A stretch of DNA of 64,000 nt, taken from the NCBI GenBank assembly GCA_965222115.1, contig CBDCTJ010000007.1:2304001-2368000 (forward strand), given 5' to 3'. Of the stretch, positions 11,379 to 58,247 are shown one piece after another; within the stretch, counting starts at the first letter, position 1; each line of letters opens with the position of its first letter. Below the pieces are notes generated by a model. The model was not told the DNA's origin. It made no database searches and was given only the letters and a program-made list of their open reading frames with translations. This stretch comes from Planctomycetota bacterium (GTDB lineage Bacteria > Planctomycetota > PLA2 > JAEUHO01). The translations under genes and the position numbers were made by a program.

Positions 11379-11388
11379 TAGACGTCCG

Positions 11389-11429
11389 GACCCCGCAAAA
11401 AAGTGCCGGGTGTAAATTTGCGAGGTTCG
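11389..11429. repeat. Palindromic ~40-bp repeat P, copy 1 (copy 2 at 42424-42465)
   Basis: CCCGCAAAAAAGTGCCGGGTGTAAATTTGCG is shared by both copies; CGCAAA/TTTGCG stem. Confidence 0.8.
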
Positions 11430-11437
11430 CGTGTCTC

Positions 11438-11628
11438 CCTTCACCCTTCACCCGTCACTCGTCACCCGTTACCCATAACCCGTACTCAAGGGCGGGCATC
11501 CGATGAACGATTCGCGCAGCCTTAACGTGGACGTGGACGTGGACGTGGACGTGGACGTGGACGTGGACGTGGACGTGGACGTGGACGTGGACGTGGACGT
11601 GGACGTGGACGTGGACGTGGACGTGGAC
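11438..11628 (+). repeat. Modular motif copy A: heptamer tract, core, (GTGGAC)17
   Basis: TCACCCG-like tract, CCCGTACTCAAGGGCGGGCATCCGATGAACGATTC, GTGGAC x17 at 11527-11628. Confidence 0.9.
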
Positions 11629-11812
11629 GTGTGGTGGCCACGTGAATACCGCTTGTGAGCGACACCCATAACGCACCGAACTGATTGTTGTGTGACGTGA
11701 AGGCTCACTGGGCAACACCCGCTTGGGAAGTGCTACGTGCATGCCCCATTCGCCACGAGGGCGAGGGCACGCACTCGCATTCCCGCGGGTGCTTCCTCGT
11801 GGAGATTCTCGT

Positions 11813-12199
11813 ATGTCACACAGCAATCAGTTCTCGGTTACTTCCACAGCGAGTCGACTTGAACGATTCGACGTATATCGAATCGCACGGCGTGCCGCGG
11901 CTAGCATTCACAAGCTCTGTGGATCGCTGCCTCGAGGCAACGCCGAGCTTGCGAGCCAAGCTCGACGAGCCTCTACAGCCGTTGTCCTCAACATCGCAGA
12001 GGGCATCGGACGTGCTGGCGCGGGCGCAAAACACCGCTCGTTCTCCATCGCGCGCGGCGAATGCGTCGAGGCGGCAGCAGCCCTCGACCTCATGCAGGCG
12101 ATGGGCATCCTTGCCGGTGCGAGTGCGGCCCCAACGCTCCGCGACCTGGATCGTGTACGTGCGATGTTGAATGCGCTCATTCGTCACTGGAGAGAGTGA
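11813..12199 (+). CDS. Four-helix bundle protein (TIGR02436/23S rRNA IVP/Avd-like), type A copy 1
   Basis: FDVYRIA...LPRG..ELASQARRASTAVVLNIAEG...FSIARGECVE; GGAG RBS; 128 aa. Confidence 0.85.
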   Translation: MSHSNQFSVTSTASRLERFDVYRIARRAAASIHKLCGSLPRGNAELASQARRASTAVVLNIAEGIGRAGAGAKHRSFSIARGECVEAAAALDLMQAMGILAGASAAPTLRDLDRVRAMLNALIRHWRE

Positions 12200-12217
12200 G
12201 AGGCGCCCATTCCAAGT

Positions 12218-12388
12218 TCCCGTCACCCGTTACCCGTACTCAAGGGCGGTCATCCGAAGATCGATTCACGCCGCTTTGACGTGGACGTGGACGTGGACGT
12301 GGACGTGGACGTGGACGTGGACGTGGACGTGGACGTGGACGTGGACGTGGACGTGGACGTGGACGTGGACGTGGACGTGGACGTGGAC
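12218..12388 (+). repeat. Modular motif copy B with (GTGGAC)18
   Basis: CCCGTCACCCGTTACCCGTACTCAAGGGCGGTCATCCGAAGATCGATTCACG, then GTGGAC x18 at 12281-12388. Confidence 0.9.
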
Positions 12389-12395
12389 GTGTATG

Positions 12396-12479
12396 TAGGC
12401 CAGGTGGGACTCGAACCCACATAGGTTTTCACCCGGGGGATTTTAAGTCCCCTGCGTATACCAATTCCGCCACTGGCCC
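12396..12479 (-). tRNA. tRNA-Leu(TAA)
   Basis: GGGCCAG/CTGGCCT acceptor, GGCGGAATTGGTATACGC D-arm, GGGGA-CTTAAAA-TCCCC anticodon arm, long variable arm, GGTTCGAGTCCC; CCA not encoded. Confidence 0.95.
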
Positions 12480-12900
12480 GCGGACGTACACGGTACCGCA
12501 GACGCAGCCGCTGGCTATCAGCGTGCATCGAGGGAATCGACTGCAAGATTTGCGATTCGGTTCACTGTGGAGTCGATCGCTTGCCAATCAAGAATCTCCC
12601 CTTCGCAATCGGATCGATGGGGCGAAGGTAGCGTGCGTTCGTGGAGGCCGCCGCGTAGTCCTCTACGCAAGAACGACACGGGCGTGCGGGACCGAGCATC
12701 CATCGGTCAGCACCTGAATCGGGCCCAGCATCTCGCATAACCCAATCTCATGACGGTGTGCTGACATGGGAGAAGACAAACTACCTACCTTCGCCCTGCG
12801 TCTCGATTGATCTGACCGAACTCGACATGCAGAACCCACTACACTGGTGCGCCATGAGACATTGTCCTTGAAGGTGCCTTGGGCGGGCAGGGAGGTCGTC

Positions 12901-13477: not shown

Positions 13478-13575
13478 CCCGTTTCCCGTATCCTCCGTCA
13501 CCCGTGTCCCCGTAATCCGTTACCCGTGTCCCCGTAATCCGTTACCCGTGAACCGCCCGATGATCGATTCGTCCC
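13478..13575 (+). repeat. Degenerate modular motif copy C (heptamer tract and partial core, no GTGGAC tract)
   Basis: CCGTCACCCGTGTCCCCGTAATCCGTTACCCG with a 22-bp unit x2, then CCGATGATCGATTC. Confidence 0.65.
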
Positions 13576-13614
13576 GCGTCTAGGAGGTCGAGAACAGATA
13601 GGCGAAGCCCATAT

Positions 13615-13678
13615 GCGCGAGACCCCGGTAAGCACCAGCGGATCTTTGATCCGCGCGGTGAGCATCGAAGGGTGGACG
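13615..13678. repeat. REP-like palindromic repeat R, copy 1
   Basis: GACCC..GTAAGCACCAGCGGATCTTTGATCCGCGC.GTG.GCATCGAAGGGT; also at 44021-44079 and 47847-47912. Confidence 0.8.
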
Positions 13679-13843
13679 GGAAATGGGAAACACCCGTCTC
13701 TATCGGAGGAGTAATTGATCGCCGCGAGTGGGCTCATCTCGCGCAGAGGGAACACGCCCCCTTATCGGCAGGCCAATAGCGTGCGAGTTGGATCATATAT
13801 ATCCATTTTGGATAATTTCTGGCCAGTATGGTGGGATCAGGGC

Positions 13844-14113
13844 ATGAATGTGTCACTCTCCGAGGATCAGAAGAAGTTCATCGAGGACGCCATCCAGGGC
13901 GGTCGCTACTTTTCGTCCGCTGAGGTCGTGCGTGCCGGACTTCGATTGCTCATGGAAAGAGAGGAATCACGAAGGGCGCAGCTTGAACGACTCAGAAACG
14001 GAATACAGCTCGGCCTTGACGACATAGAGAATGGCAATGTAGTTGACGCAGGAGAGTTTTTTCAAGCGTTGAGGGAGCAACTATTGGCCCGCAAGTCGGC
14101 TGCGGACGAGTGA
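13844..14113 (+). CDS. parD: Type II antitoxin, ParD family (RHH, CC2985-like)
   Basis: MNVSLS...GRYFSSAEVVRAGLRLL...LRNGIQLG; overlaps the toxin start. Confidence 0.85.
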   Translation: MNVSLSEDQKKFIEDAIQGGRYFSSAEVVRAGLRLLMEREESRRAQLERLRNGIQLGLDDIENGNVVDAGEFFQALREQLLARKSAADE

Positions 14114-14415
14114 GCCGAAGCATCCTTTCCGCACGTGCATCGAGAGACATTGATGCGATTGTGGCGTTTATCGCAGGTGACTCTATTGATGCGGCCCTTC
14201 GCATGATTGACGAATTTTACGACGCGTGCGCCCTGACCTTCGCTCATCCCGGAATAGGTCACGTCCGACCCGATCTTATTAATGACGACCATGTACGCTT
14301 TTGGTCAGTCCGCGCATTCTTGCTGATTTACCGCGTATTCGATTCGAAGCCAATCGTAGTTCGCGTCGTTGACGGACGCAGAGACGTCCCGAACATTCAA
14401 CTGGACAACGATTGA
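14110..14415 (+). CDS. parE: Type II toxin, RelE/ParE family
   Basis: LSARASRDIDAIVAFIA.DS..AA...HPGIGHVRPDL...VVRVVDGRRD. Confidence 0.85.
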   Translation: MSRSILSARASRDIDAIVAFIAGDSIDAALRMIDEFYDACALTFAHPGIGHVRPDLINDDHVRFWSVRAFLLIYRVFDSKPIVVRVVDGRRDVPNIQLDND

Positions 14416-38746: not shown

Positions 38747-40351
38747 ATGGCCCAAACGAAGAAGGCACCCGCAAAGAAGCCCACCATTGACGACGTCATG
38801 GCGGTGCTGGAAGAGCGCTACGGACTACCGCCGAGCGATCTCGGCCGGCCGGAAGACCCGTTAATCGACAAGTTGTTAATGTTGGTGCTTGAGCCCTACA
38901 CGGGCAGCATCGAAAAAGCCAAGGATGCCATTCGCGACGCGTCGCGCCGGGTGATCGACTTCAATGAGTTGCGCGTGAGTGGCCTGCGCGAGTTTGAAGA
39001 CATCATCGCGCCGTATGTGCCCGCGCCGCTGCGTCAACGCGCCGCGTGGGATATGCGCATGGCGCTGCAAGACGTGTGGGATGGTTCCCATGGGCTCGAT
39101 CTTGAACCGCTGCGCAATCGTCCACCGGAGGATCAGCGCAAGTTCTTGGCCGACCTGCCGAATGTTTCGGGTGGGGTTGCCGCGCTCATCTTCCAAATCG
39201 CTTGTGGCGACAAATACGTAGCCTTCGGTCCGCGCGAGGAAAAGTTGTTGGTGCGGTTTGGCTTGCTACCCCGTAGCTCGACGCGCGAACGCATTCGTCT
39301 AGCTATTGAACGACGGGTAAAGCCAGAAGATCGGAGGCGTTTCTCATGGCTGGCGGGCCACGGCGCCAATCTCTTTGAACACGATTTCGATCCAGCAAAT
39401 CCATTTTGCAAGTTGCTTGCGGCGGCCCGGGCCAAGGAACTCCAACTTCGAGCGCAGGAAGCCAAACGCGAAGAAGCCCGACGCAAGGCCGAAGAAAAGG
39501 CGCGTCGAATCGAAGAAGAGAAACAACGTCGCATTGAAGAGCGCGAGCGCAAGCGCATTGAACGCGAAGAAGCCAAGCGCCAGCGCGCCGAAGAGATGAA
39601 GCGTAAGCGCGAAGAAGCCGCTGCCCGACGCAAGGCAGAAGCCCTCGCCCGCAAGGAAGCCGCCGCCAAGCGAAAGGCTGAGATGATTGCTCGCCGTAAG
39701 GCCGAAGCGATTCGCAAGAAGGAAGCTGCCGCCAAGAAGAAAGCGGCCATGATTGCCAAGAAGAAAGCTGCCGCGGCCAAGAAGAAGGCTGCGCTGGCGA
39801 AGAAGAAGGCGGCCGCCAAGAAGAAGGCCGCAATGGCGAAGAAGAAAGCGGCGATGGCCAAGAAGAAGGCTGCGCTTGCAAAGAAGCGCGCTGCGGCAAA
39901 GAAGAAAGCTGCACTCGCCAAAAAGAAGGCCGCTGCCGCCAAGAAGAAAGCTGCTGCTGCGAAGAAGAAAGCAGCGATGGCCAAAAAGCAGGCTGCCGCG
40001 AAGAAGAAGGCTGCGATGGCCAAGAAGCGCGCTGCAGCCGCCAAGAAGAAAGCCGCTCTCGCCAAGAAGCGCGCTGCGGCCAAGAAGAAGGCTGCGAAAA
40101 AGAAGAAGAACGCCAAAAAGTCCGTGAGAAAGAAGACGTCGGCGGCCAAGCGCAAGAAGAAGGCTCCCGCACGAACAAAGAAGAAGGCATCCAAACGCAA
40201 GAAGACGCGTGCCGGCTCAAAGAAGAAGGCTGCGAAGAAGAAGGCAAAGAAGCCCAAGAAGAAGCCAAAGTCGAAACCCAAAAAGAAGGCAGCGCGTCGC
40301 AAGACAAAGAAGAAGGCCAAGCGAAGGGCGACGAAGAAGCGCAGGCGGTAG
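38747..40351 (+). CDS. Endonuclease III/HhH-like N-terminal domain fused to a long Lys/Ala-rich histone H1-like tail
   Basis: DFNELRVS...LDLEPLR...LADLPNV N-terminal domain (family by resemblance); E/R/K coiled coil; about 200 aa of KKKAAA repeats. Confidence 0.65.
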   Translation: MAQTKKAPAKKPTIDDVMAVLEERYGLPPSDLGRPEDPLIDKLLMLVLEPYTGSIEKAKDAIRDASRRVIDFNELRVSGLREFEDIIAPYVPAPLRQRAAWDMRMALQDVWDGSHGLDLEPLRNRPPEDQRKFLADLPNVSGGVAALIFQIACGDKYVAFGPREEKLLVRFGLLPRSSTRERIRLAIERRVKPEDRRRFSWLAGHGANLFEHDFDPANPFCKLLAAARAKELQLRAQEAKREEARRKAEEKARRIEEEKQRRIEERERKRIEREEAKRQRAEEMKRKREEAAARRKAEALARKEAAAKRKAEMIARRKAEAIRKKEAAAKKKAAMIAKKKAAAAKKKAALAKKKAAAKKKAAMAKKKAAMAKKKAALAKKRAAAKKKAALAKKKAAAAKKKAAAAKKKAAMAKKQAAAKKKAAMAKKRAAAAKKKAALAKKRAAAKKKAAKKKKNAKKSVRKKTSAAKRKKKAPARTKKKASKRKKTRAGSKKKAAKKKAKKPKKKPKSKPKKKAARRKTKKKAKRRATKKRRR

Positions 40352-41059: not shown

Positions 41060-41196
41060 CCGTCATCCGTTTTCCCGTACCCCGTACCCCGTACCCCGTC
41101 ACCCCGTCACCCGGGCACAAGAATGAGTGTTCGATGATCGACTCGTCCATCGTTTAGGACGTGGACGTGGACGTGGACGTGGACGTGGACGTGGAC
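41060..41196 (+). repeat. Modular motif copy D with (GTGGAC)6
   Basis: (CCCGTAC)n tract, diverged core TCGATGATCGACTCG, GTGGAC x6 at 41161-41196. Confidence 0.8.
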
Positions 41197-41198
41197 GG

Positions 41199-41573
41199 TC
41201 AAGGCTCGTCGAACCTTCGTTGAAGCACAAACAACATGGCGGCGCATCGCTCCAGAGTGTTCATGACGCTTGAAACTGCGGCCTCGCTGGCGAGTCCGAG
41301 TAGTAGCGCTTGATGTAGAGCGGCAATGGCTTCGGTGCATTCGGCGTGTGCGATATCGTAAGCTTTGCGTTTCTCGGCTGGCCGCCGTTTCGATATGCCT
41401 TCGGCGACGTTTAGCGCCACGCTGGTACTTGCGCGCCTGAGTTGATCGGCGAGTTTTGCGTGGCCACGAGGCCATTCACCGCAGATGGTGACGCACCCGA
41501 CCGCCGCGGCCTGCGATGCACGGTAGACGTCGAAGCGTTTGAGGTATTCGAGCGTGGAAGACGCGCTTGTCAT
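41199..41573 (-). CDS. Four-helix bundle protein, type B copy 1
   Basis: FDVYRAS...WPRGHAKLADQLRRASTSVALNVAEG...YDIAHAECTE; 124 aa. Confidence 0.85.
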   Translation of the reverse strand: MTSASSTLEYLKRFDVYRASQAAAVGCVTICGEWPRGHAKLADQLRRASTSVALNVAEGISKRRPAEKRKAYDIAHAECTEAIAALHQALLLGLASEAAVSSVMNTLERCAAMLFVLQRRFDEP

Positions 41574-41783
41574 GATGGAGCTCCAGCGTGAAGGGATCGC
41601 AAGCCGTTTGCTCGTGTGTGCCCTTCGCAAAAGAGCCGAAGGCGAAGGAGGGCGCACACGAGCGGGTCGTACAAACAGAACCCCGCGCAATAGCGTCAAC
41701 TCGTTCTCAAGCTGGAGTTCCATCACAAGCGGAGTTCGCGCGTACCGAACGTGCTGGAGCAACTGGCGGTGTTGTCTAAGGCT

Positions 41784-41869
41784 CCGTCACCCGTTACCCT
41801 TTCCCCGAGTTCAAGGGCGGGCATCCGATGAACGATTCACGACCCCTTAACGTGAACGTGGACGTGGAC
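41784..41869 (+). repeat. Modular motif copy E with a short hexamer tract
   Basis: CCGTCACCCGTTACCC...TCAAGGGCGGGCATCCGATGAACGATTCACG...GTGAACGTGGACGTGGAC. Confidence 0.85.
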
Positions 41870-42017
41870 GGTGTGCGCACCGAACTGATTGCTGTGTGAC
41901 GTGAAGGCTCACCGGGCAACACCCGCTTGGGAAGTGCTACGTGCATGCCCCTATTCGCCACAAGGGCGAGGGCACGCACTCGCATTCCCGCGGGTGTTTC
42001 CTCGTGGAGATTCTCGT

Positions 42018-42404
42018 ATGTCACACAGCAATCAGTTCTCGGTTACTTCCACGGCGAGTCGGCTTGAACGGTTCGACGTGTATCGAATTGCACGGCGTGC
42101 CGCGGCGAGCATTCACCATCTCTGTGGATCGCTGCCTCGAGGCAACGCCGAGCTCGCAAGCCAAGCTCGACGAGCCTCTGCGGCCGTCGTCCTCAACGTC
42201 GCGGAGGGCATCGGACGTGCCGGCACGGGCGCCAAGCACCGTTCGTTCTCAATCGCTCGCGGCGAGTGTGTCGAGGCCTCGGCTGCGCTCGACCTCATGC
42301 AGGCAATGGGTATTCTCACAAACGCGTGCGCGATGCCTACACTTCGTGATCTCGACCGCGTCCGCGCGATGTTGAACGCACTTATCCGCCGCTGGAGGGA
42401 ATGA
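42018..42404 (+). CDS. Four-helix bundle protein, type A copy 2
   Basis: Close paralog of 11813-12199, including the ~140-nt leader. Confidence 0.85.
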   Translation: MSHSNQFSVTSTASRLERFDVYRIARRAAASIHHLCGSLPRGNAELASQARRASAAVVLNVAEGIGRAGTGAKHRSFSIARGECVEASAALDLMQAMGILTNACAMPTLRDLDRVRAMLNALIRRWRE

Positions 42405-42423
42405 GGGGAGTTACATGAAAGCC

Positions 42424-44020: not shown

Positions 44021-44079
44021 GCGGAGACCCTGAGTAAGCACCAGCGGATCTTTGATCCGCGCAGTGCGCATCGATGGGT
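44021..44079. repeat. REP-like palindromic repeat R, copy 2
   Basis: Matches 13615-13678. Confidence 0.8.
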
Positions 44080-46983: not shown

Positions 46984-47101
46984 TCACCCGTCACCCGTCA
47001 CCCGTCACCCGTTACCCGGACTCAAGTCTGAGCGTCCGATGTTCGATTAGCGCCTGTTCGTGGACGTGGACGTGGACGTGGACGTGGACGTGGACGTGGA
47101 C
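46984..47101 (+). repeat. Modular motif copy F with (GTGGAC)7
   Basis: (TCACCCG)4 TTACCCGGACTCAAGTCTGAGCGTCCGATGTTCGATT; GTGGAC x7 at 47060-47101. Confidence 0.9.
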
Positions 47102-47103
47102 GA

Positions 47104-47478
47104 TCACGGGTCGTCGAATCGACGCTGAAGTACGAACAACATCGCGACACATCGCTCCAAGGAGTTCATCACGCGTGAGGTTATGGCGTCGCTGGCGAGG
47201 CCGAGTAGCAGCGCGTGATGTAGGGCCGCAATGGCTTCAGTGCATTCGGCGTGTGCGATGTCGTACGCTTTGCGTTTCTCGGCTGGACGCCTTTTCGATA
47301 GGCCTTCGGCGACGTTTAGCGCCACGCTGGTACTAGCGCGCCTGAGTTGATCGGCGAGCTTTGCGTGGCCTCGAGGCCATGTGGCACAGAGGGCGTTGCA
47401 TTCAAGTGCCGTGGATTGTGAGGTGCGGTAGACATCGAAGCGTTTGAGGTACTCAAGCGTGGAAGACGCGCTTGTCAT
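47104..47478 (-). CDS. Four-helix bundle protein, type B copy 2
   Basis: Close paralog of 41199-41573, including the leader. Confidence 0.85.
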   Translation of the reverse strand: MTSASSTLEYLKRFDVYRTSQSTALECNALCATWPRGHAKLADQLRRASTSVALNVAEGLSKRRPAEKRKAYDIAHAECTEAIAALHHALLLGLASDAITSRVMNSLERCVAMLFVLQRRFDDP

Positions 47479-47687
47479 GATGGAACTCCAGCGTTAAGGG
47501 AATGCAAGCCGTTTGCTCGCGTGTGCCCTTCGTGAAGGAGCCGAAGGCGAAGGAGGGCACACGCGAGCGGGTCGTACAAAAGAAGCCCCGCGTAATAGCG
47601 ACAACTCGTTCTCAAGCTGGAGTTCCATTGCAAGCGGCGCCCGCGCGTACCGATCCCGCTGGAGCAGCCGGCGGTGTTGCCCAAGGT

Positions 47688-47825
47688 TCCGTCACCCGTT
47701 TCCCGTGCCCCGTTACCCGGACTCAAGTGTGGGCGTCCGATGTTCGATTCACGCCAGCTCGTGGACGTGGACGTGGACGTGGACGTGGACGTGGACGTGG
47801 ACGTGGACGTGGACGTGGACGTGGA
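47688..47825 (+). repeat. Modular motif copy G with (GTGGAC)10
   Basis: CCCGTTACCCGGACTCAAGTGTGGGCGTCCGATGTTCGATTCACGCCAGCTC; GTGGAC x10 at 47761-47820. Confidence 0.9.
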
Positions 47826-47846
47826 GAGCAAATGGCCTTGCCATTT

Positions 47847-47912
47847 GCGCGAAGACCCTGAGTAAGCTCCAGCGGATCTCTGATCCGCGCAGTGCGCTTC
47901 GAAGGGTGGACG
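47847..47912. repeat. REP-like palindromic repeat R, copy 3
   Basis: Matches 13615-13678 and 44021-44079. Confidence 0.8.
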
Positions 47913-55573: not shown

Positions 55574-55627
55574 CTCGGATCCTTCCGCCGCAATCCGACT
55601 ATTGAATCGCCGAGCGCCGAATTAGCG

Positions 55628-55690
55628 CTTCGCGACCTCGACCGCGTTCGCGCGATGTTGAACGCGCTCGTCCGCCGCTGGAGGGCGTGA
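55628..55690 (+). pseudogene. 3' remnant of a type A four-helix-bundle gene
   Basis: Translates LRDLDRVRAMLNALVRRWRA*, near-identical to the C-termini at 12199 and 42404. Confidence 0.8.
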
Positions 55691-55764
55691 GGCACTCTCA
55701 TTCATTCAGCGATTCTCGAAATTTGGTGCCAGGCGCAGATTGCGTGTGTCATCCAGTAGCGCAC

Positions 55765-55822
55765 TCCCGTTACCCGAAACCCGTTACCCGTTACCCGACA
55801 CCCGCAACCCGTTACCCGGACT
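55765..55822 (+). repeat. Modular motif copy H, left half (heptamer tract), split by the IS
   Basis: (CCCGTTA)n-like tract ending GTTACCCGGA-CT. Confidence 0.85.
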
Positions 55823-56791
55823 TCTATGAAAGGGCCTGGCATGTCAAGTGCGAAGCCGCGTCGGCGAGCGCATTTACCGCGTTGTGCATGTGTAGTTCGG
55901 CCCCTTGAGTGCGCAACTTACCCTTACCGCCCTTGCCTTTTTGGCAGCGGATCGGGGCGAATCAGATTGCCAGTCATCGTCTCTGGCGCCAGAAAACACG
56001 TCCCATTCAGGCTTCTATGCGCACTCGTGTTGGATCGAAGTTGATGCGACCCGGTGCAAGGTGGGGTCCGAGAACGAGTCTGGGTGCTGCATACTCAGTA
56101 GCGACGTCGCTATACGTCGGTCAGGGCACCGCAGTCACCCGGACTTCTATGAAAGGGCCTGGCATGTCAAGTGCGAAGCCGCGTCGGCGAGCGCATTTAC
56201 CGCGTTGTGCATGTGTAGTTCGGCCCCTTGAGTGCGCAACTTACCCTTACCGCCCTTGCCTTTTTGGCAGCGGATCGGGGCGAATCAGATTGCCAGTCAT
56301 CGTCTCTGGCGCCAGAAAACACGTCCCATTCAGGCTTCTATGCGCACTCGTGTTGGATCGAAGTTGATGCGACCCGGTGCAAGGTGGGGTCCGAGAACGA
56401 GTCTGGGTGCTGCATACTCAGTAGCGACGTCGCTATACGTCGGTCAGGGCACCGCAGTCACCCGGACTTCTATGAAAGGGCCTGGCATGTCAAGTGCGAA
56501 GCCGCGTCGGCGAGCGCATTTACCGCGTTGTGCATGTGTAGTTCGGCCCCTTGAGTGCGCAACTTACCCTTACCGCCCTTGCCTTTTTGGCAGCGGATCG
56601 GGGCGAATCAGATTGCCAGTCATCGTCTCTGGCGCCAGAAAACACGTCCCATTCAGGCTTCTATGCGCACTCGTGTTGGATCGAAGTTGATGCGACCCGG
56701 TGCAAGGTGGGGTCCGAGAACGAGTCTGGGTGCTGCATACTCAGTAGCGACGTCGCTATACGTCGGTCAGGGCACCGCAGTCACCCGGACT
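55823..56791. repeat. Three tandem 323-bp copies of the IS right-end non-coding region
   Basis: Units 55823-56145, 56146-56468, 56469-56791; they appear identical (identical spurious ORFs in the track). Confidence 0.92.
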
Positions 56792-56852
56792 CGAATTGGG
56801 GTACGTGGAAACTGACCTTATCTAATGCTTGCCTAAAGCTGTTGCGCGAGGT
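56469..56852 (-). ncRNA. Putative bridge/seek RNA region of the IS1111-type element
   Basis: Inferred from position (non-coding region 3' of the IS1111 transposase) and short matches to target and donor junction; boundaries unknown. Confidence 0.5.
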
Positions 56853-57902
56853 TCAGGCGGCCACTGGGCATCGAACCGGTATGTACTCTTCGCCTGTTCG
56901 CCACAGCGCAAGCATGAGCACGGAGAGCTTGCGTGCCACGGCGATGACTGCCTTGCGTTTCGCAACTGCGCCTCCACGCGCAATGATCCGCTCACCGTGG
57001 GACTTTAGATCGCATGGCGGGCCCAGTCGCCCGAGGATGTGATGCGCGCACTGAACGAGCAACGACCGAACCATACGGTCCCCAGCCTTCGTTATGCGTA
57101 GCTGCTTGTCCATTTGGCCGGATTGATCACGCCGTGGAACCATCCCGAGAAACGCCCCGACATCTCGGCGGTCTTCAAACCGCGCCCAATCTTGAACGGT
57201 TAACATGAATGCGAGTGCCGTGAGATTGCCCACGCCTGGAATCTGAGTGAGCAACTGTGTATCTGGATATCGCTCGTTCGCCAACTCATCGATCTTTGCG
57301 TCGTAGATCTTTACCAACTCAGTGATTCGCTCGATTGCACCGAGAAGGGGACTAAGCACATCGTAGAGCTCCTCCGGAATCTCGGCCCGCGTCTTCGTTC
57401 CGATGCATTTTGATGCCTGCTTACGCAACCGCCCGCCCATGCTCTTAATGACGCCTCGTAGCGAGTTCACCAACTTGGTTCGTGACGACACAAGCGCGGC
57501 TCGTGCACGAATCAGCGCAAGGTCTCGTTGTGCGGACTCCGGTCGATGCCGAATTGGGGCAAGTAGTTGGGGATCGAAGCGACCGATTTCAGCCAACTTC
57601 TTGGCATCCGTTCGATCGGACTTGCGAGTGTTCCTGTAAATAAAGCTTAGCTCTCGCGGATTCGCGACTAGCGACTGAGCACATCGACCTTCGACGACCC
57701 GACTCGCCCAAGGCGAATGCGTTCCCGCCTCCATCACAACTCGAGCGGTTCGGTGCTTCGATAGAAACTCGTGAAACGATTCGCGCGTTGTCGCTATCTC
57801 GCCTTCTTCCTTCTGAACCCCCGTGTCTTGATCTAAGACGCAATACCAAGAGAATCGGTCGCCTAAGTCGATGCCAATCGTTTCGGTGATACGCTTATGC
57901 AT
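56853..57902 (-). CDS. IS110 family transposase/recombinase
   Basis: GIDLG, VMEAG, KSDRTDA (DEDD); IPGVG, LGMVPRRDQSG; AGGAGG RBS before ATG 57902. Confidence 0.95.
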   Translation of the reverse strand: MHKRITETIGIDLGDRFSWYCVLDQDTGVQKEEGEIATTRESFHEFLSKHRTARVVMEAGTHSPWASRVVEGRCAQSLVANPRELSFIYRNTRKSDRTDAKKLAEIGRFDPQLLAPIRHRPESAQRDLALIRARAALVSSRTKLVNSLRGVIKSMGGRLRKQASKCIGTKTRAEIPEELYDVLSPLLGAIERITELVKIYDAKIDELANERYPDTQLLTQIPGVGNLTALAFMLTVQDWARFEDRRDVGAFLGMVPRRDQSGQMDKQLRITKAGDRMVRSLLVQCAHHILGRLGPPCDLKSHGERIIARGGAVAKRKAVIAVARKLSVLMLALWRTGEEYIPVRCPVAA

Positions 57903-57999
57903 GCTGGTAGCTCCTCCTGGGCCGTAGAGCCCGCTTATTGTTTGCAGCACGGTTTACCGTGACTGCGCGACAGAGGAGCTACCGGCCTTTTCATCCCAT

Positions 58000-58098
58000 C
58001 TCAAGTGTGAGCGTCCGATAGTCGATTCACGCCAGCTCGTGGACGTGGACGTGGACGTGGACGTGGACGTGGACGTGGACGTGGACGTGGACGTGGAC
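58000..58098 (+). repeat. Modular motif copy H, right half with (GTGGAC)10
   Basis: CTCAAGTGTGAGCGTCCGATAGTCGATTCACGCCAGCTC, GTGGAC x10 at 58039-58098; continues the left half as in copy G. Confidence 0.9.
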
Positions 58099-58247
58099 GT
58101 CGGAGGCCAAGGGTGGAGCCCTTGAGCCGGAGACCGCTCTCAGCTCCCTTCATGTGAGCAATTCAGCGGCGTGCCGCCACGCAACGTGCCCAGCAGCCAC
58201 CGAATCACGCCCCGAAACGTTTGGGCTCTGCGTCGTTGTGTGACGTA

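What the first reader, a model, noticed from the sequence alone, without database searches (positions are those of the whole stretch)
11675..11838. Type A leader forms a ~25-bp long-range stem that buries the start codon
Seen: ACCGAACTGATTGTTGTGTGACGTG (11675-11699) is complementary to TATGTCACACAGCAATCAGTTCTCGGT (11812-11838, the ATG plus first codons), with G-U pairs on the sense strand. Copy 2 (41879-41903 / 42017-42043) converts one G-U to G-C. An inner hairpin GTGCATGCCC...GGGCACGCAC lies in the loop. The ~140-nt non-coding leader is as conserved between copies as the CDS. Inference: a structured RNA that represses translation (autoregulation) or acts as the protein's RNA partner.
Basis: partly seen in the sequence, partly recalled or inferred. 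Interest (0 to 1): 0.72.

Follow-up and report, generated by a model that had tools for sequence, protein, structure and literature searches.

The report
Start-codon-burying leader of four-helix-bundle gene cassette
A conserved, rod-shaped stretch in front of a small multi-copy gene folds back on the gene's own start codon, most likely keeping the gene switched off at translation, and gives a large protein family of unknown function a testable control element.

Summary
11675-11699 pairs with 11812-11838, which holds the ATG and codons 2-9, in a 24-bp helix. That helix closes a 165-nt rod (-91.6 kcal/mol, z -7.9). The gene is a PF05635/TIGR02436 "23S rRNA-IVS / Avd-like" four-helix-bundle protein.

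The genome has 8 type A copies. Their leaders are 90-96% identical, while third codon positions are only 66% identical, so the leader is under purifying selection. Two stem pairs show compensatory changes. Both involve amino-acid changes in the gene that are matched in the 5' arm. Seven of 8 third positions in codons 2-9 are invariant, against 32 of 119 in the rest of the gene.

Ten type B paralogues have a leader that my type A RNA model does not detect, yet it also buries the Shine-Dalgarno site and brackets the ATG. Covariation-supported hairpins that sequester the Shine-Dalgarno site precede homologues in related genera, and unrelated ones occur in Myxococcota.

My best reading is a cis-acting leader that occludes the ribosome-binding site, in an IVS-like cassette outside rRNA, and is probably an RNase III substrate. 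Autoregulation or a role as the protein's RNA partner is untested. No transcript data exist, and the antisense strand folds equally well.

Earlier notes of this scan describe similar cassettes in other phyla. My literature searches found no description.

The parts
11433..11483 (+). Heptamer array (GTCACCC-like; G3N4 on the opposite strand). This is the left part of the boundary element that flanks the cassettes.
   Evidence: TRF period 7, 7.3 copies. The same arrangement lies downstream of 7 of the 8 type A genes (alignment).
11487..11513 (+). Conserved boundary core, matching the 27-nt pattern given.
   Evidence: 3 matches in the window (11487, 12241, 41812); 0 expected in 100 shuffles.
11525..11631 (+). 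(GACGTG)n hexamer array, 17.8 units, upstream of the leader.
   Evidence: TRF, 100% matches. 27 arrays of 3 or more units in the genome, 25 on C7, most within a few hundred bases of the 18 PF05635 genes.
11632..11674 (+). Variable spacer. Similarity among the copies ends here. Promoter not identified.
   Evidence: Mean pairwise identity 0.41. No sigma-70-like site found.
11675..11699 (+). 5' arm of the closing helix. The conserved unit begins exactly here.
   Evidence: Mean identity 0.90 among 8 copies.
11700..11811 (+). Inner rod (helices 2-6). It includes the invariant hairpin 11737-11775 and the Shine-Dalgarno GGAG at 11801-11804, which sits in or next to an internal loop.
   Evidence: Consensus fold. 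Helices 5 and 6 never vary. Mean identity 0.94.
11812..11838 (+). 3' arm of the closing helix: the start codon (11813-11815) and codons 2-9.
   Evidence: 7 of 8 third codon positions are invariant, against 32 of 119 in the rest of the gene. Residues 1-8 are predicted disordered.
11813..12199 (+). Type A gene, 128 aa: PF05635 / TIGR02436 four-helix-bundle protein.
   Evidence: Pfam 68.2 bits (cut-off 33.8), E 8.5e-19. TIGR02436 70.2 bits. AF2 model pLDDT 91.8 with four helices. 2gsc TM 0.76-0.80, 2rld, Avd 8ub7/4dwl.
12219..12391 (+). Downstream boundary element in the same orientation: heptamers, core at 12241-12267, and (GACGTG)19 at 12278-12391. It abuts tRNA-Leu (12395-12479, minus strand).
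   Evidence: In the MFE fold of 11500-12400 the two arrays pair through their ACGU cores, but z is only -1.3.
41879..42043 (+). Type A leader, copy 2: 5' arm 41879-41903, 3' arm 42016-42043, ATG at 42017.
   Evidence: 97% identical to copy 1 over the leader. The whole unit 41876-42405 is 87.5% identical to 11672-12200.
42017..42403 (+). Type A gene, copy 2.
   Evidence: 92% protein identity to copy 1.
41552..41741 (-). Type B leader, not detected by the type A model. 5' arm about 41711-41731. 3' arm about 41564-41587, which holds the paired GGAG, the bulged ATG (41571-41573) and paired codons 2-3.
   Evidence: Alignment and consensus fold of 10 copies. Coordinates are derived from A7 columns by hand. 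Opening energy 15.9 kcal/mol.
41199..41573 (-). Type B gene (124 aa, PF05635/TIGR02436), divergent from type A copy 2 across one shared boundary element (41780-41870).
47104..47646 (-). Second type B gene (47104-47478) with its leader, between boundary elements at 46984-47102 and 47689-47825.
   Evidence: Leader limits taken by analogy with A7.

Best explanation
The type A leader is the 5' untranslated part of a multi-copy gene cassette. The cassette encodes a PF05635/TIGR02436 four-helix-bundle protein, the family first seen in 23S rRNA intervening sequences and related to DGR Avd.

On the mRNA the roughly 165-nt leader folds into one rod. Its closing 24-bp helix pairs the first nucleotides of the conserved unit with the start codon and codons 2-9, so a 30S subunit cannot reach the initiation site. 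Translation is therefore off by default.

A near-perfect helix of more than two turns is also the kind of substrate RNase III cuts (recalled knowledge). A cut there would sever the initiation region. In the Coxiella IVS, RNase III excision removes the putative Shine-Dalgarno site of the same kind of ORF (PMC4990558, section 16).

What opens the helix, if anything, is unknown.

Shown here:
- the fold potential
- its conservation under selection
- a few compensatory changes
- suppressed synonymous change in the 3' arm
- the high cost of opening the ribosome-binding site
- the recurrence of this design in paralogues and homologues that share no detectable leader sequence.

Inferred:
- that the sense RNA is the active species
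- that the 5' arm is transcribed
- repression of translation
- RNase III cleavage.
For: 1. Fold. -91.6 kcal/mol, z -7.9, 0 of 200 shuffles as good.

2. Copies. There are 8 copies in the genome. Similarity starts exactly at the 5' arm.

3. Selection. Mean pairwise identity is 0.90 for the 5' arm, 0.94 for the inner rod and 0.96 for the 3' arm. Codon position 3 is 0.665 and the spacer 0.41. The proteins are 92-95% identical. So the copies are old and both gene and leader are constrained.

4. Compensation.
- Pair 17/161 is A-U in 3 copies, U-A in 3 and broken in 2. The 3' side of this pair is the N5K codon change.
- Pair 25/153 is G-C in 7 copies and A-U in 1. The 3' side is the H3Y codon change.
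- 97.6% of cells are paired, against 35-53% when the partner is slid by 1-3 columns.
- 2 of 500 shuffles reach the covariation score.

5. Synonymous sites. 7 of 8 third positions in codons 2-9 are invariant, against 32 of 119 elsewhere. This is the highest 8-codon window in the gene. My hand binomial gives about 6e-4. These residues are disordered in the model.

6. Ribosome-site access. Opening -14..+5 costs 15.2-21.0 kcal/mol for type A and 15.9-27.8 for type B. For 250 control starts the median is 9.7 and the 95th percentile 16.1. 7 of 8 type A and 9 of 10 type B copies lie in the controls' top 5%.

7. Independent replicate. The type B leader is not hit by the type A model R1. It has its own long-range helix that pairs GGAG and brackets the ATG, with 3 compensatory pairs.

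8. Relatives.
- A hairpin that sequesters the Shine-Dalgarno site precedes homologues in four other genomes of the bacterial family. 10 of its 23 pairs have double changes and 0 of 500 shuffles reach that; the alignment was fitted to the model.
- Myxococcota homologues L085 and L091 bury the Shine-Dalgarno site and ATG in unrelated hairpins (z -6.3 and -9.5; 29.0 and 29.8 kcal/mol).

9. Published parallel. In the Coxiella IVS, tandem heptamers lie upstream of the S23p ATG and vary in number, and RNase III processing removes the putative Shine-Dalgarno site (PMC4990558, section 16, read in full).
Against: - No transcript data. No RNA run is listed for this DNA, so the transcription start and even expression are unknown.
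- No sigma-70-like promoter was found in 11380-12480.
- The antisense strand folds as well or better than the sense strand in 7 of 8 type A and 9 of 10 type B leaders. Energy alone cannot say which strand, or whether RNA or DNA, is the active form.
- Covariation within type A rests on only 2 pairs. 6 of the 24 helix-1 pairs are broken in one or two copies.
- The type A Shine-Dalgarno site itself sits largely in an internal loop. Its pairing probability is 0.56-0.79, against 0.90-1.00 in type B.
- The design is not general in the protein family. Only 9 of 31 homologue leaders from other genomes reach the controls' top 5% and 14 of 31 have z at or below -3. One row, L073, is the same DNA as L030.
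- No type A leader was found outside this genome: 0 of 60 relatives with model R1 under stricter filters, 0 metagenome matches to an exact-pattern scan, and no close protein relative. Deeper covariation testing was therefore impossible.
- A helix this stable gives no obvious route to switching on.
Confidence: 0.6

Rival explanations
1. The leader is an operator or RNA partner of the protein. The Avd-like pentamer would bind the conserved rod of its own mRNA, either for autoregulation or to form a ribonucleoprotein that is the real product of the cassette. This can coexist with occlusion of the ribosome-binding site.
For: - The inner rod is 94% identical and helices 5 and 6 are invariant. That is more conservation than a helix would need merely to occlude.
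- The predicted fold matches the S23p-family structures 2gsc and 2rld. It also matches Avd in the DGR reverse-transcriptase ribonucleoprotein 8ub7 (TM 0.76) and 4dwl.
- Avd and PF05635 are treated as homologous in PMC10053308 (one passage read).
Against: - No binding test is possible with these tools.
- The leaders of type A, type B, the relatives and the Myxococcota homologues share no detectable sequence. R1 does not hit type B and R2 does not hit this genome. A common protein-RNA interface would therefore have had to re-evolve with each leader.
- No reverse transcriptase lies in the window. The genome's 7 RVT_1 hits are all outside it.
Confidence: 0.2
2. The palindrome acts at the DNA level. 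A hairpin or cruciform in single-stranded DNA would be recognised by a recombinase or transposase that spreads or rearranges the cassette, as with attC sites or hairpin-dependent transposition.
For: - The reverse complement folds as well as the sense strand.
- The conserved unit starts exactly at the base of the helix.
- The cassettes are multi-copy (18 genes) and sit between housekeeping genes such as Maf and ribosomal protein S1.
- A truncated type A remnant lies at 55626-55692, and an IS110-family transposase gene at 56856-57950 sits between the halves of a split boundary element.
- The helix base reads ACCGAAC on one side and GTTC-TC-GGT on the other, with a 2-nt extrahelical bulge. This loosely recalls the R boxes of attC sites (a recalled consensus, not tested).
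Against: - The 3' arm lies inside the reading frame, and in type B and in the relatives it is the Shine-Dalgarno/ATG region every time. That pattern points to translation, not recombination.
- The copies have about 33% divergence at third codon positions, so they are not recent transposition products.
- No recombinase gene is part of the unit.
- The helix encloses only the non-coding leader, not the cassette.
- An empty-site comparison could not be made.
Confidence: 0.1
3. The rod is an independent small RNA, sense or antisense, with a trans-acting role. Its overlap with the start codon would be incidental.
For: Either strand can form a stable rod. The sequence is highly conserved.
Against: - No Rfam family matches: the only gathering-level hits in the window are 2 tRNAs.
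- No terminator-like site follows the rod.
- The rod always sits immediately 5' of, and overlapping, a PF05635 start (8 of 8 copies).
- There are no expression data.
Confidence: 0.05
4. The conservation is a by-product of recent duplication or gene conversion, and the fold has no function.
For: All copies are in one genome, within 0.6 Mb of one contig.
Against: - Third codon positions of the same units are only 66.5% identical and the flanks 41-60%, while the leader is 90-96% identical. Conversion would have homogenised the coding part as well.
- There are compensatory changes.
- Type B and distant homologues have arrived at the same design.
Confidence: 0.03

Closest known systems
ORF-bearing 23S rRNA intervening sequences (IVS), e.g. 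the Coxiella burnetii helix-45 IVS encoding S23p (PMC4990558)
   Same: - The protein family is the same (PF05635; S23p-family structures 2gsc and 2rld are the top fold matches).
- Short tandem repeats lie just upstream of the ORF and vary in copy number. The paper reports heptamers GACAGAT in 2-3 copies; here hexamer arrays run from 3 to 32 units.
- The initiation region lies in or next to a long helix, which in Coxiella is cut by RNase III so that the putative Shine-Dalgarno site is removed.
   Different: - None of the 18 genes here is in rRNA. The single 23S gene lies at C7:2146135-2149887, far from all of them.
- The conserved helix lies wholly 5' of the ORF and does not enclose it.
- The flanking arrays are direct, not inverted, repeats. 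They can pair only through their ACGT cores (z -1.3).
- The genes here are under strong purifying selection, whereas the Coxiella ORF is described as decaying.
Leader hairpins and translational operators that occlude the ribosome-binding site, including RNase III-controlled leaders (general class; recalled knowledge)
   Same: A 5' UTR helix pairs the Shine-Dalgarno site and/or the start codon. The cost of opening the site lies far above the genome background.
   Different: - The leader is much longer and more stable (63 pairs, about -90 kcal/mol) than typical thermosensors or operators.
- No alternative 'on' fold is evident.
- No Rfam family matches.
- The effector is unknown.
DGR accessory protein Avd in the bRT-Avd-RNA ribonucleoprotein (PDB 8ub7, 4dwl)
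   Same: Four-helix-bundle fold (TM 0.70-0.76). Avd works bound to structured RNA next to its own gene (inferred from the PDB entry title and recalled knowledge).
   Different: - Sequence identity in the structural alignment is only 9-12%.
- There is no reverse transcriptase in the window. The genome's 7 RVT_1 hits are all outside it.
- I did not search for template/variable repeat pairs; the repeats that one search found beside the cassettes are boundary elements and cassette copies.
- No PADLOC model matches.
Integron attC sites
   Same: An imperfect palindrome with extrahelical bases at the edge of a small gene cassette found in many copies.
   Different: - attC sites lie 3' of the cassette ORF and are 57-141 bp long (recalled).
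- Here the palindrome is 5' of the ORF, overlaps the start codon, and is longer and GC-rich.
- I did not search the genome for an integron integrase or an attI site.

Membership tests
PF05635 (23S_rRNA_IVP) / TIGR02436 four helix bundle protein | Profile score above the curated cut-off | tested here: met
   Pfam 68.2 bits against a cut-off of 33.8. TIGR02436 scores 70.2 bits for type A and 59.9 for type B against a cut-off of 24.
PF05635 (23S_rRNA_IVP) / TIGR02436 four helix bundle protein | Four-helix-bundle fold like the solved family members | tested here: met
   AF2 model pLDDT 91.8 with helices 10-37, 44-66, 70-96 and 102-127. 2gsc TMq 0.76-0.80, rmsd 1.2-1.7; 2rld TMq 0.75-0.80. phmmer to 2gsc gives E 7.8e-7.
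23S rRNA intervening sequence (IVS) | Inserted in a 23S rRNA helix | tested here: not met
   The window has no rRNA. The genome's one LSU rRNA match is at C7:2146135-2149887. All 18 PF05635 genes lie at 2274590-2848013.
23S rRNA intervening sequence (IVS) | A long stem formed by sequences on both sides of the ORF | tested here: inconclusive
   The two flanking (GACGTG)n arrays pair in the MFE fold of 11500-12400, but z is -1.3 and 3 of 20 shuffles fold as well. Copy 2 has no downstream array.
23S rRNA intervening sequence (IVS) | Excision by RNase III | not testable with these tools
   This needs an in vitro cleavage assay or RNA 5'/3'-end mapping.
Any Rfam 15 RNA family | Covariance-model score at or above the gathering threshold | tested here: not met
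   The window gives only 2 tRNAs. The hairpins of six relatives' loci give only sub-threshold miRNA-precursor matches of 26-40 bits, against gathering scores of 84-128.
Diversity-generating retroelement (Avd accessory gene) | An adjacent reverse transcriptase and a template/variable repeat pair | tested here: not met
   The genome has 7 RVT_1 hits, none within the window. I did not search specifically for TR/VR pairs.
Cis-regulatory leader that occludes the ribosome-binding site (functional class) | The initiation region is base-paired in a conserved structure | tested here: met
   Pairing probability of the ATG is 0.91-0.98 in 6 of 8 type A copies and 0.37-0.38 in the other 2. Opening energy lies in the controls' top 5% in 7 of 8 type A and 9 of 10 type B copies.
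Cis-regulatory leader that occludes the ribosome-binding site (functional class) | The 5' arm is part of the transcript, and disrupting it raises translation | not testable with these tools
   No RNA run is listed. This needs transcription-start mapping and reporter fusions.
Integron attC site | Position 3' of the cassette ORF, with R''/R' boxes and an integron integrase | tested here: not met
   The palindrome is 5' of the ORF and overlaps the start codon. The likeness to R boxes is partial and rests on a recalled consensus. I did not search for an integrase.

The most novel reading that the evidence does not exclude
The rod-shaped leader, the phased ACGT-core repeat arrays and the Avd-like protein together form one RNA-protein module of a selfish, IVS-like cassette that lives outside rRNA. 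In this reading the protein assembles on its own structured transcript, as Avd does in the DGR ribonucleoprotein. The buried start codon would then be the switch that couples RNA processing, for instance by RNase III, to production of the protein or to spread of the cassette. That would give a function and a mechanism to one of the largest uncharacterised small-protein families in bacteria.
Probability: 0.15. Interest if true: 0.8.

Novelty: new variant of a known kind. Interest (0 to 1): 0.55.

Why it matters
PF05635/TIGR02436 proteins are very numerous. They have solved structures and a known relative, Avd, yet the stand-alone genes have no known function. The one experimental study I read concluded that the Coxiella IVS copy is probably not translated.

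Here the genes are clearly under purifying selection, and each carries a constrained leader that hides its own initiation site. Paralogues and distant homologues reach the same design with different sequences. This points to tightly limited, or conditionally released, translation as part of the family's biology.

It also gives concrete experiments: arm mutations with compensatory changes, RNase III cleavage, and protein binding. Finally, it links the non-rRNA cassettes to the classical rRNA IVS through two shared features, short tandem repeats in front of the ORF and an initiation region inside a long helix.

Tried and rejected
- **Type A leader in other genomes.** Model R1 found it in 0 of 60 relatives, under stricter filters. 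An exact-pattern scan of metagenome contigs found 0 matches. The type A protein had no relative in genome contigs and one weak, partial relative in metagenome contigs (L097, 57% over 50 residues), which I did not use.\n- **Homology between leader families.** R1 does not hit type B. R2, built on the relatives' hairpin, does not hit this genome at E <= 0.01. An 8-mer (GAGGGCGA) shared by type A and the relatives' hairpin pairs in a different register, and I treat it as chance.\n- **Empty-site test.** Maf is present in 29 of 29 genomes of the bacterial family, but the S1 gene is not within 1.5 kb of it in any of the 13 relatives' loci fetched. Synteny is not conserved, so no empty site could be compared.\n- **Expression.** No RNA holder is listed, and I laid no reads.\n- **Promoter and terminator scan.** It found nothing useful.\n- **Strand choice by energy.** No asymmetry in favour of the sense strand.\n- **Defence-system membership.** No PADLOC model matches.\n- **A wide 17-sequence protein alignment** was too diverse for the search for related loci. 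I used the narrower alignment A4 instead.\n- **Upstream in-frame extension as a leader peptide.** Rejected, because two copies have stops at -105.\n- **Upstream hexamer array as an alternative partner for the start codon.** Only 5 bp are possible (by eye), so I did not pursue it.\n- **Literature.** Three full-text searches listed no paper describing leader hairpins or repeat-flanked PF05635 cassettes outside rRNA. I checked listings only, apart from PMC4990558 (abstract and section 16) and PMC10053308 (one passage).
Full report
**1. The observation**

The 5' arm is 11675-11699. The 3' arm is 11812-11838, and the ATG is at 11813-11815.

Folding 11665-11850 as RNA gives one unbranched rod of -91.6 kcal/mol. 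The 200 dinucleotide shuffles average -59.9 (sd 4.0), so z = -7.9, and none folds as well. The closing helix has 24 pairs with a 2-nt bulge. It pairs the A, U and G of the start codon with U11698, G11697 and C11696.

The Shine-Dalgarno GGAG (11801-11804) lies mostly in an internal loop just above this helix.

**2. The gene**

The ORF 11813-12199 (128 aa) belongs to PF05635, 23S_rRNA_IVP (68.2 bits, cut-off 33.8), and to TIGR02436, "four helix bundle protein".

An AlphaFold2 model built on a 17-sequence alignment has pLDDT 91.8 and four helices. Residues 1-8, which the 3' arm encodes, are disordered.

The best structural matches are Xanthomonas XCC0516 (2gsc, TM 0.76-0.80), Bacteroides BT_0352 of the "S23 ribosomal protein family" (2rld), and then Avd of the Bordetella-phage DGR, including Avd within the reverse-transcriptase ribonucleoprotein (8ub7; 4dwl).

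**3. Copies and selection**

- The genome holds 8 type A leaders, 91-100% identical to the query.
- It holds 18 PF05635 genes: 8 type A and 10 type B, all on contig C7 between 2.27 and 2.85 Mb.
- Among the 8 type A units, similarity begins exactly at the first base of the 5' arm.

Mean pairwise identity among the type A units:

| Region | Identity |
|---|---|
| Spacer upstream | 0.41 |
| 5' arm | 0.90 |
| Inner rod | 0.94 |
| 3' arm | 0.96 |
| Rest of CDS, all positions | 0.857 |
| Codon positions 1 / 2 / 3 | 0.94 / 0.97 / 0.665 |
| First 60 nt downstream | 0.60 |

The proteins are 92-95% identical. The copies are therefore old. The protein is under purifying selection, and the non-coding leader is as constrained as non-synonymous sites. 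Recent duplication or gene conversion does not explain this pattern.

**4. Evidence for pairing within type A**

Variation is scarce, so the test is weak, but it is positive.

- 97.6% of 503 cells are paired, against 35-53% when partners are slid by 1-3 columns.
- Two pairs carry changes on both sides.
- 2 of 500 shuffles reach the observed covariation score.

Both compensated pairs involve amino-acid changes in the gene:

- AAT to AAA (N5K) is matched by A to U in the 5' arm in two copies and by an inserted U in a third. It is unmatched in two copies.
- CAC to TAC (H3Y) in one copy is matched by G to A.

Six of the 24 helix-1 pairs are broken in one or two copies.

Third codon positions of codons 2-9 are invariant in 7 of 8 cases, against 32 of 119 in the rest of the gene. 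No other 8-codon window exceeds 5. My hand binomial gives about 6e-4. This is what a nucleic-acid constraint overlapping the coding sequence would produce.

**5. A caveat on strand**

The reverse complement folds as well or better in 7 of 8 type A leaders (difference -0.2 to +5.8 kcal/mol) and in 9 of 10 type B leaders.

What points to the sense mRNA is position. The 3' arm is the initiation region, here and in every parallel case described below.

**6. Independent parallels**

*Type B, same genome.* The type B leaders (10 copies) are not detected by the type A covariance model. They fold into a closed rod of similar size. A roughly 20-bp long-range helix pairs GGAG, leaves the ATG as a bulge, and pairs the next codons. 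Three pairs show compensatory change.

*Other genera of the same bacterial family.* PF05635 genes occur in 11 of 29 genomes of the family. In one protein subfamily they are preceded by a hairpin of about 85 nt whose 3' arm carries the Shine-Dalgarno site. On 12 sense-strand instances from four genomes:
- 10 of 23 pairs have double changes
- 92.3% of cells are paired, against 40-53% when slid
- 0 of 500 shuffles reach the observed values.

The alignment was fitted to the model, which favours the structure. That model does not hit this genome.

*Myxococcota.* MAG homologues (L085-L087, L090, L096; L091) have unrelated hairpins that pair both the Shine-Dalgarno site and the ATG.

**7. How unusual the occlusion is**

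I computed the energy needed to unpair -14..+5 within -200..+40. The controls were 250 starts drawn at random from 930 ORFs of at least 300 codons whose ATG is preceded by a Shine-Dalgarno-like word. This is my own crude gene calling.

| Set | Opening energy (kcal/mol) | In controls' top 5% |
|---|---|---|
| Controls | median 9.7; 95th percentile 16.1; max 22.2 | - |
| Type A | 15.2-21.0 | 7 of 8 |
| Type B | 15.9-27.8 | 9 of 10 |
| Homologue leaders from other genomes | 4.3-29.8 | 9 of 31 |

In addition, 14 of the 31 homologue leaders have a fold z at or below -3. One row, L073, is the same DNA as L030. The design is therefore common in the protein family but not universal.

**8. Context: a cassette**

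Each unit is bounded by a composite element made of three parts: a heptamer array (G3N4 on one strand), a conserved core of about 30 nt, and a (GACGTG)n array.

- Of 27 arrays with 3 or more hexamers in the genome, 25 are on C7, and most of these lie within a few hundred bases of a PF05635 gene.
- Array length ranges from 3 to 32 units.
- Type A carries GACGTG on its sense strand and type B carries CACGTC. One boundary element can therefore serve a divergent B/A pair, as at 41074-42405.
- The cassettes sit between ordinary genes: an ECF-type sigma-domain protein and tRNA-Leu for copy 1, and Maf and ribosomal protein S1 for the B/A pair.
- Because the hexamer has an ACGT core, two direct arrays can pair (4 bp plus G-G mismatches). 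They do so in the MFE fold of 11500-12400, but not significantly (z -1.3).
- Short-period arrays also precede homologues in Myxococcota, Chthoniobacterales and Gemmatimonadaceae loci.

**9. Comparison with what is known**

Rfam 15 has no matching family.

The closest described system is the ORF-bearing 23S rRNA IVS. I read section 16 of PMC4990558 in full. In Coxiella a putative Shine-Dalgarno site and two or three tandem heptamers precede the S23p ATG. The repeat number differs between strains. RNase III excision removes the Shine-Dalgarno site, and the protein appears not to be made.

The elements here share three features with that IVS:
- the protein family
- the repeats in front of the ORF
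- an initiation region inside a long helix.

They differ in three ways:
- They are not in rRNA. The only 23S gene is elsewhere and carries a different insertion.
- Their conserved helix lies wholly upstream of the ORF.
- The genes are clearly maintained by selection.

Three literature searches listed no description of such leaders or cassettes outside rRNA (listings only apart from the two papers named).

Earlier notes of this scan describe repeat-flanked PF05635 cassettes with folded leaders that bury the ribosome-binding site, in Polyangia, Acidobacteriota, Patescibacteria and others. These are unchecked AI notes that I used as leads. On this genome I confirm the buried initiation site. I find that the arrays are direct repeats here, not inverted ones.

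**10. Mechanism and verdict**

Most likely (0.6), this is a cis-acting mRNA leader that keeps the cassette gene translationally silent by occluding the initiation site. Its closing helix is a probable RNase III substrate.

Binding by the Avd-like protein, whether as autoregulation or as an RNA partner, is compatible with this reading and untested (0.2). A DNA-level role of the palindrome in cassette mobility cannot be excluded, because the fold is strand-symmetric in energy (0.1). An independent small RNA (0.05) and a functionless by-product of duplication (0.03) are unlikely.

The transcription start, actual repression, and the signal that would release it all remain open.

Noticed in passing
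G000:C7 2.27-2.85 Mb (window 11525-11631, 12278-12391, 41157-41197, 47059-47102, 47760-47825, 58038-58100): (GACGTG)n arrays of 3-32 units: 27 in the genome, 25 on C7, most within a few hundred bases of one of the 18 PF05635 genes. The orientation is fixed relative to gene type: GACGTG on the sense strand of type A, CACGTC on the sense strand of type B. All 18 genes lie in one 0.6-Mb stretch of a 4.5-Mb genome.
   Followed up: partly
window 11433-11483, 41074-41112, 46984-47018, 55766-55818, 13494-13550: Heptamer arrays (CCCGTTA / GTCACCC; G3N4 on the other strand, a possible G-quadruplex motif). Together with a conserved core of about 30 nt and the hexamer array they form the boundary element on both sides of the cassettes.
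   Followed up: partly
loci L078, L079, L081, L083, L088, L089, L092-L094 (upstream of the PF05635 match at about 701): Homologues in Myxococcota, Chthoniobacterales and Gemmatimonadaceae MAGs are also preceded by short-period arrays, such as (GACGGC)n, (GTCACG)n and a 12-nt unit. The link between repeats and this gene family seems to cross phyla.
   Followed up: no
window 55626-55692: A remnant of the last roughly 65 nt of a type A gene (80-88% identical to the ends of copies 1 and 2) lies just after the PEPCK gene. It is followed by the usual downstream segment and heptamers, but has no leader and no rest of the gene.
   Followed up: partly
window 55814-58105: An IS110-family transposase gene (56856-57950, minus strand; PF01548 + PF02371) and a 323-bp unit repeated three times in tandem (55814-56791, 100% matches). 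They lie between the heptamer half (55766-55818) and the core-plus-hexamer half (58000-58105) of a boundary element, as if the IS had inserted into it.
   Followed up: no
window 13609-13678, 44021-44079, 47841-47912 (and upstream of several type B copies elsewhere on C7): A further repeat of about 70-90 nt with a central hairpin (CAGCGGATC...GATCCGCG). It often lies next to a hexamer array and carries no gene.
   Followed up: no
window 13715-14415: A ParD antitoxin / ParE toxin gene pair (PF03693, PF05016) just beyond a heptamer array and the 70-nt repeat.
   Followed up: no
G000:C7:2146135-2149887 (outside the window): The single 23S rRNA match spans 3753 nt against a 2925-position model. The extra part holds an ORF with a LAGLIDADG-like motif (recognised by eye), so it is probably an intron with a homing endonuclease. 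It has no PF05635 ORF and no similarity to the cassettes.
   Followed up: partly
G000: C3:81659, C7:262294, 881482, 1004494, 1984989, 2631845, 3037923: Seven RVT_1 reverse-transcriptase hits, mostly in identical multi-copy sets (445 and 515 aa frames), probably group II introns. One lies about 1.4 kb from the type B gene at 2633969.
   Followed up: no
window 38747-40348 (repeats 39715-40291): An ORF with long degenerate tandem repeats rich in AAG and GCN codons, i.e. a Lys/Ala-rich, histone-H1-like low-complexity protein. No Pfam match.
   Followed up: no
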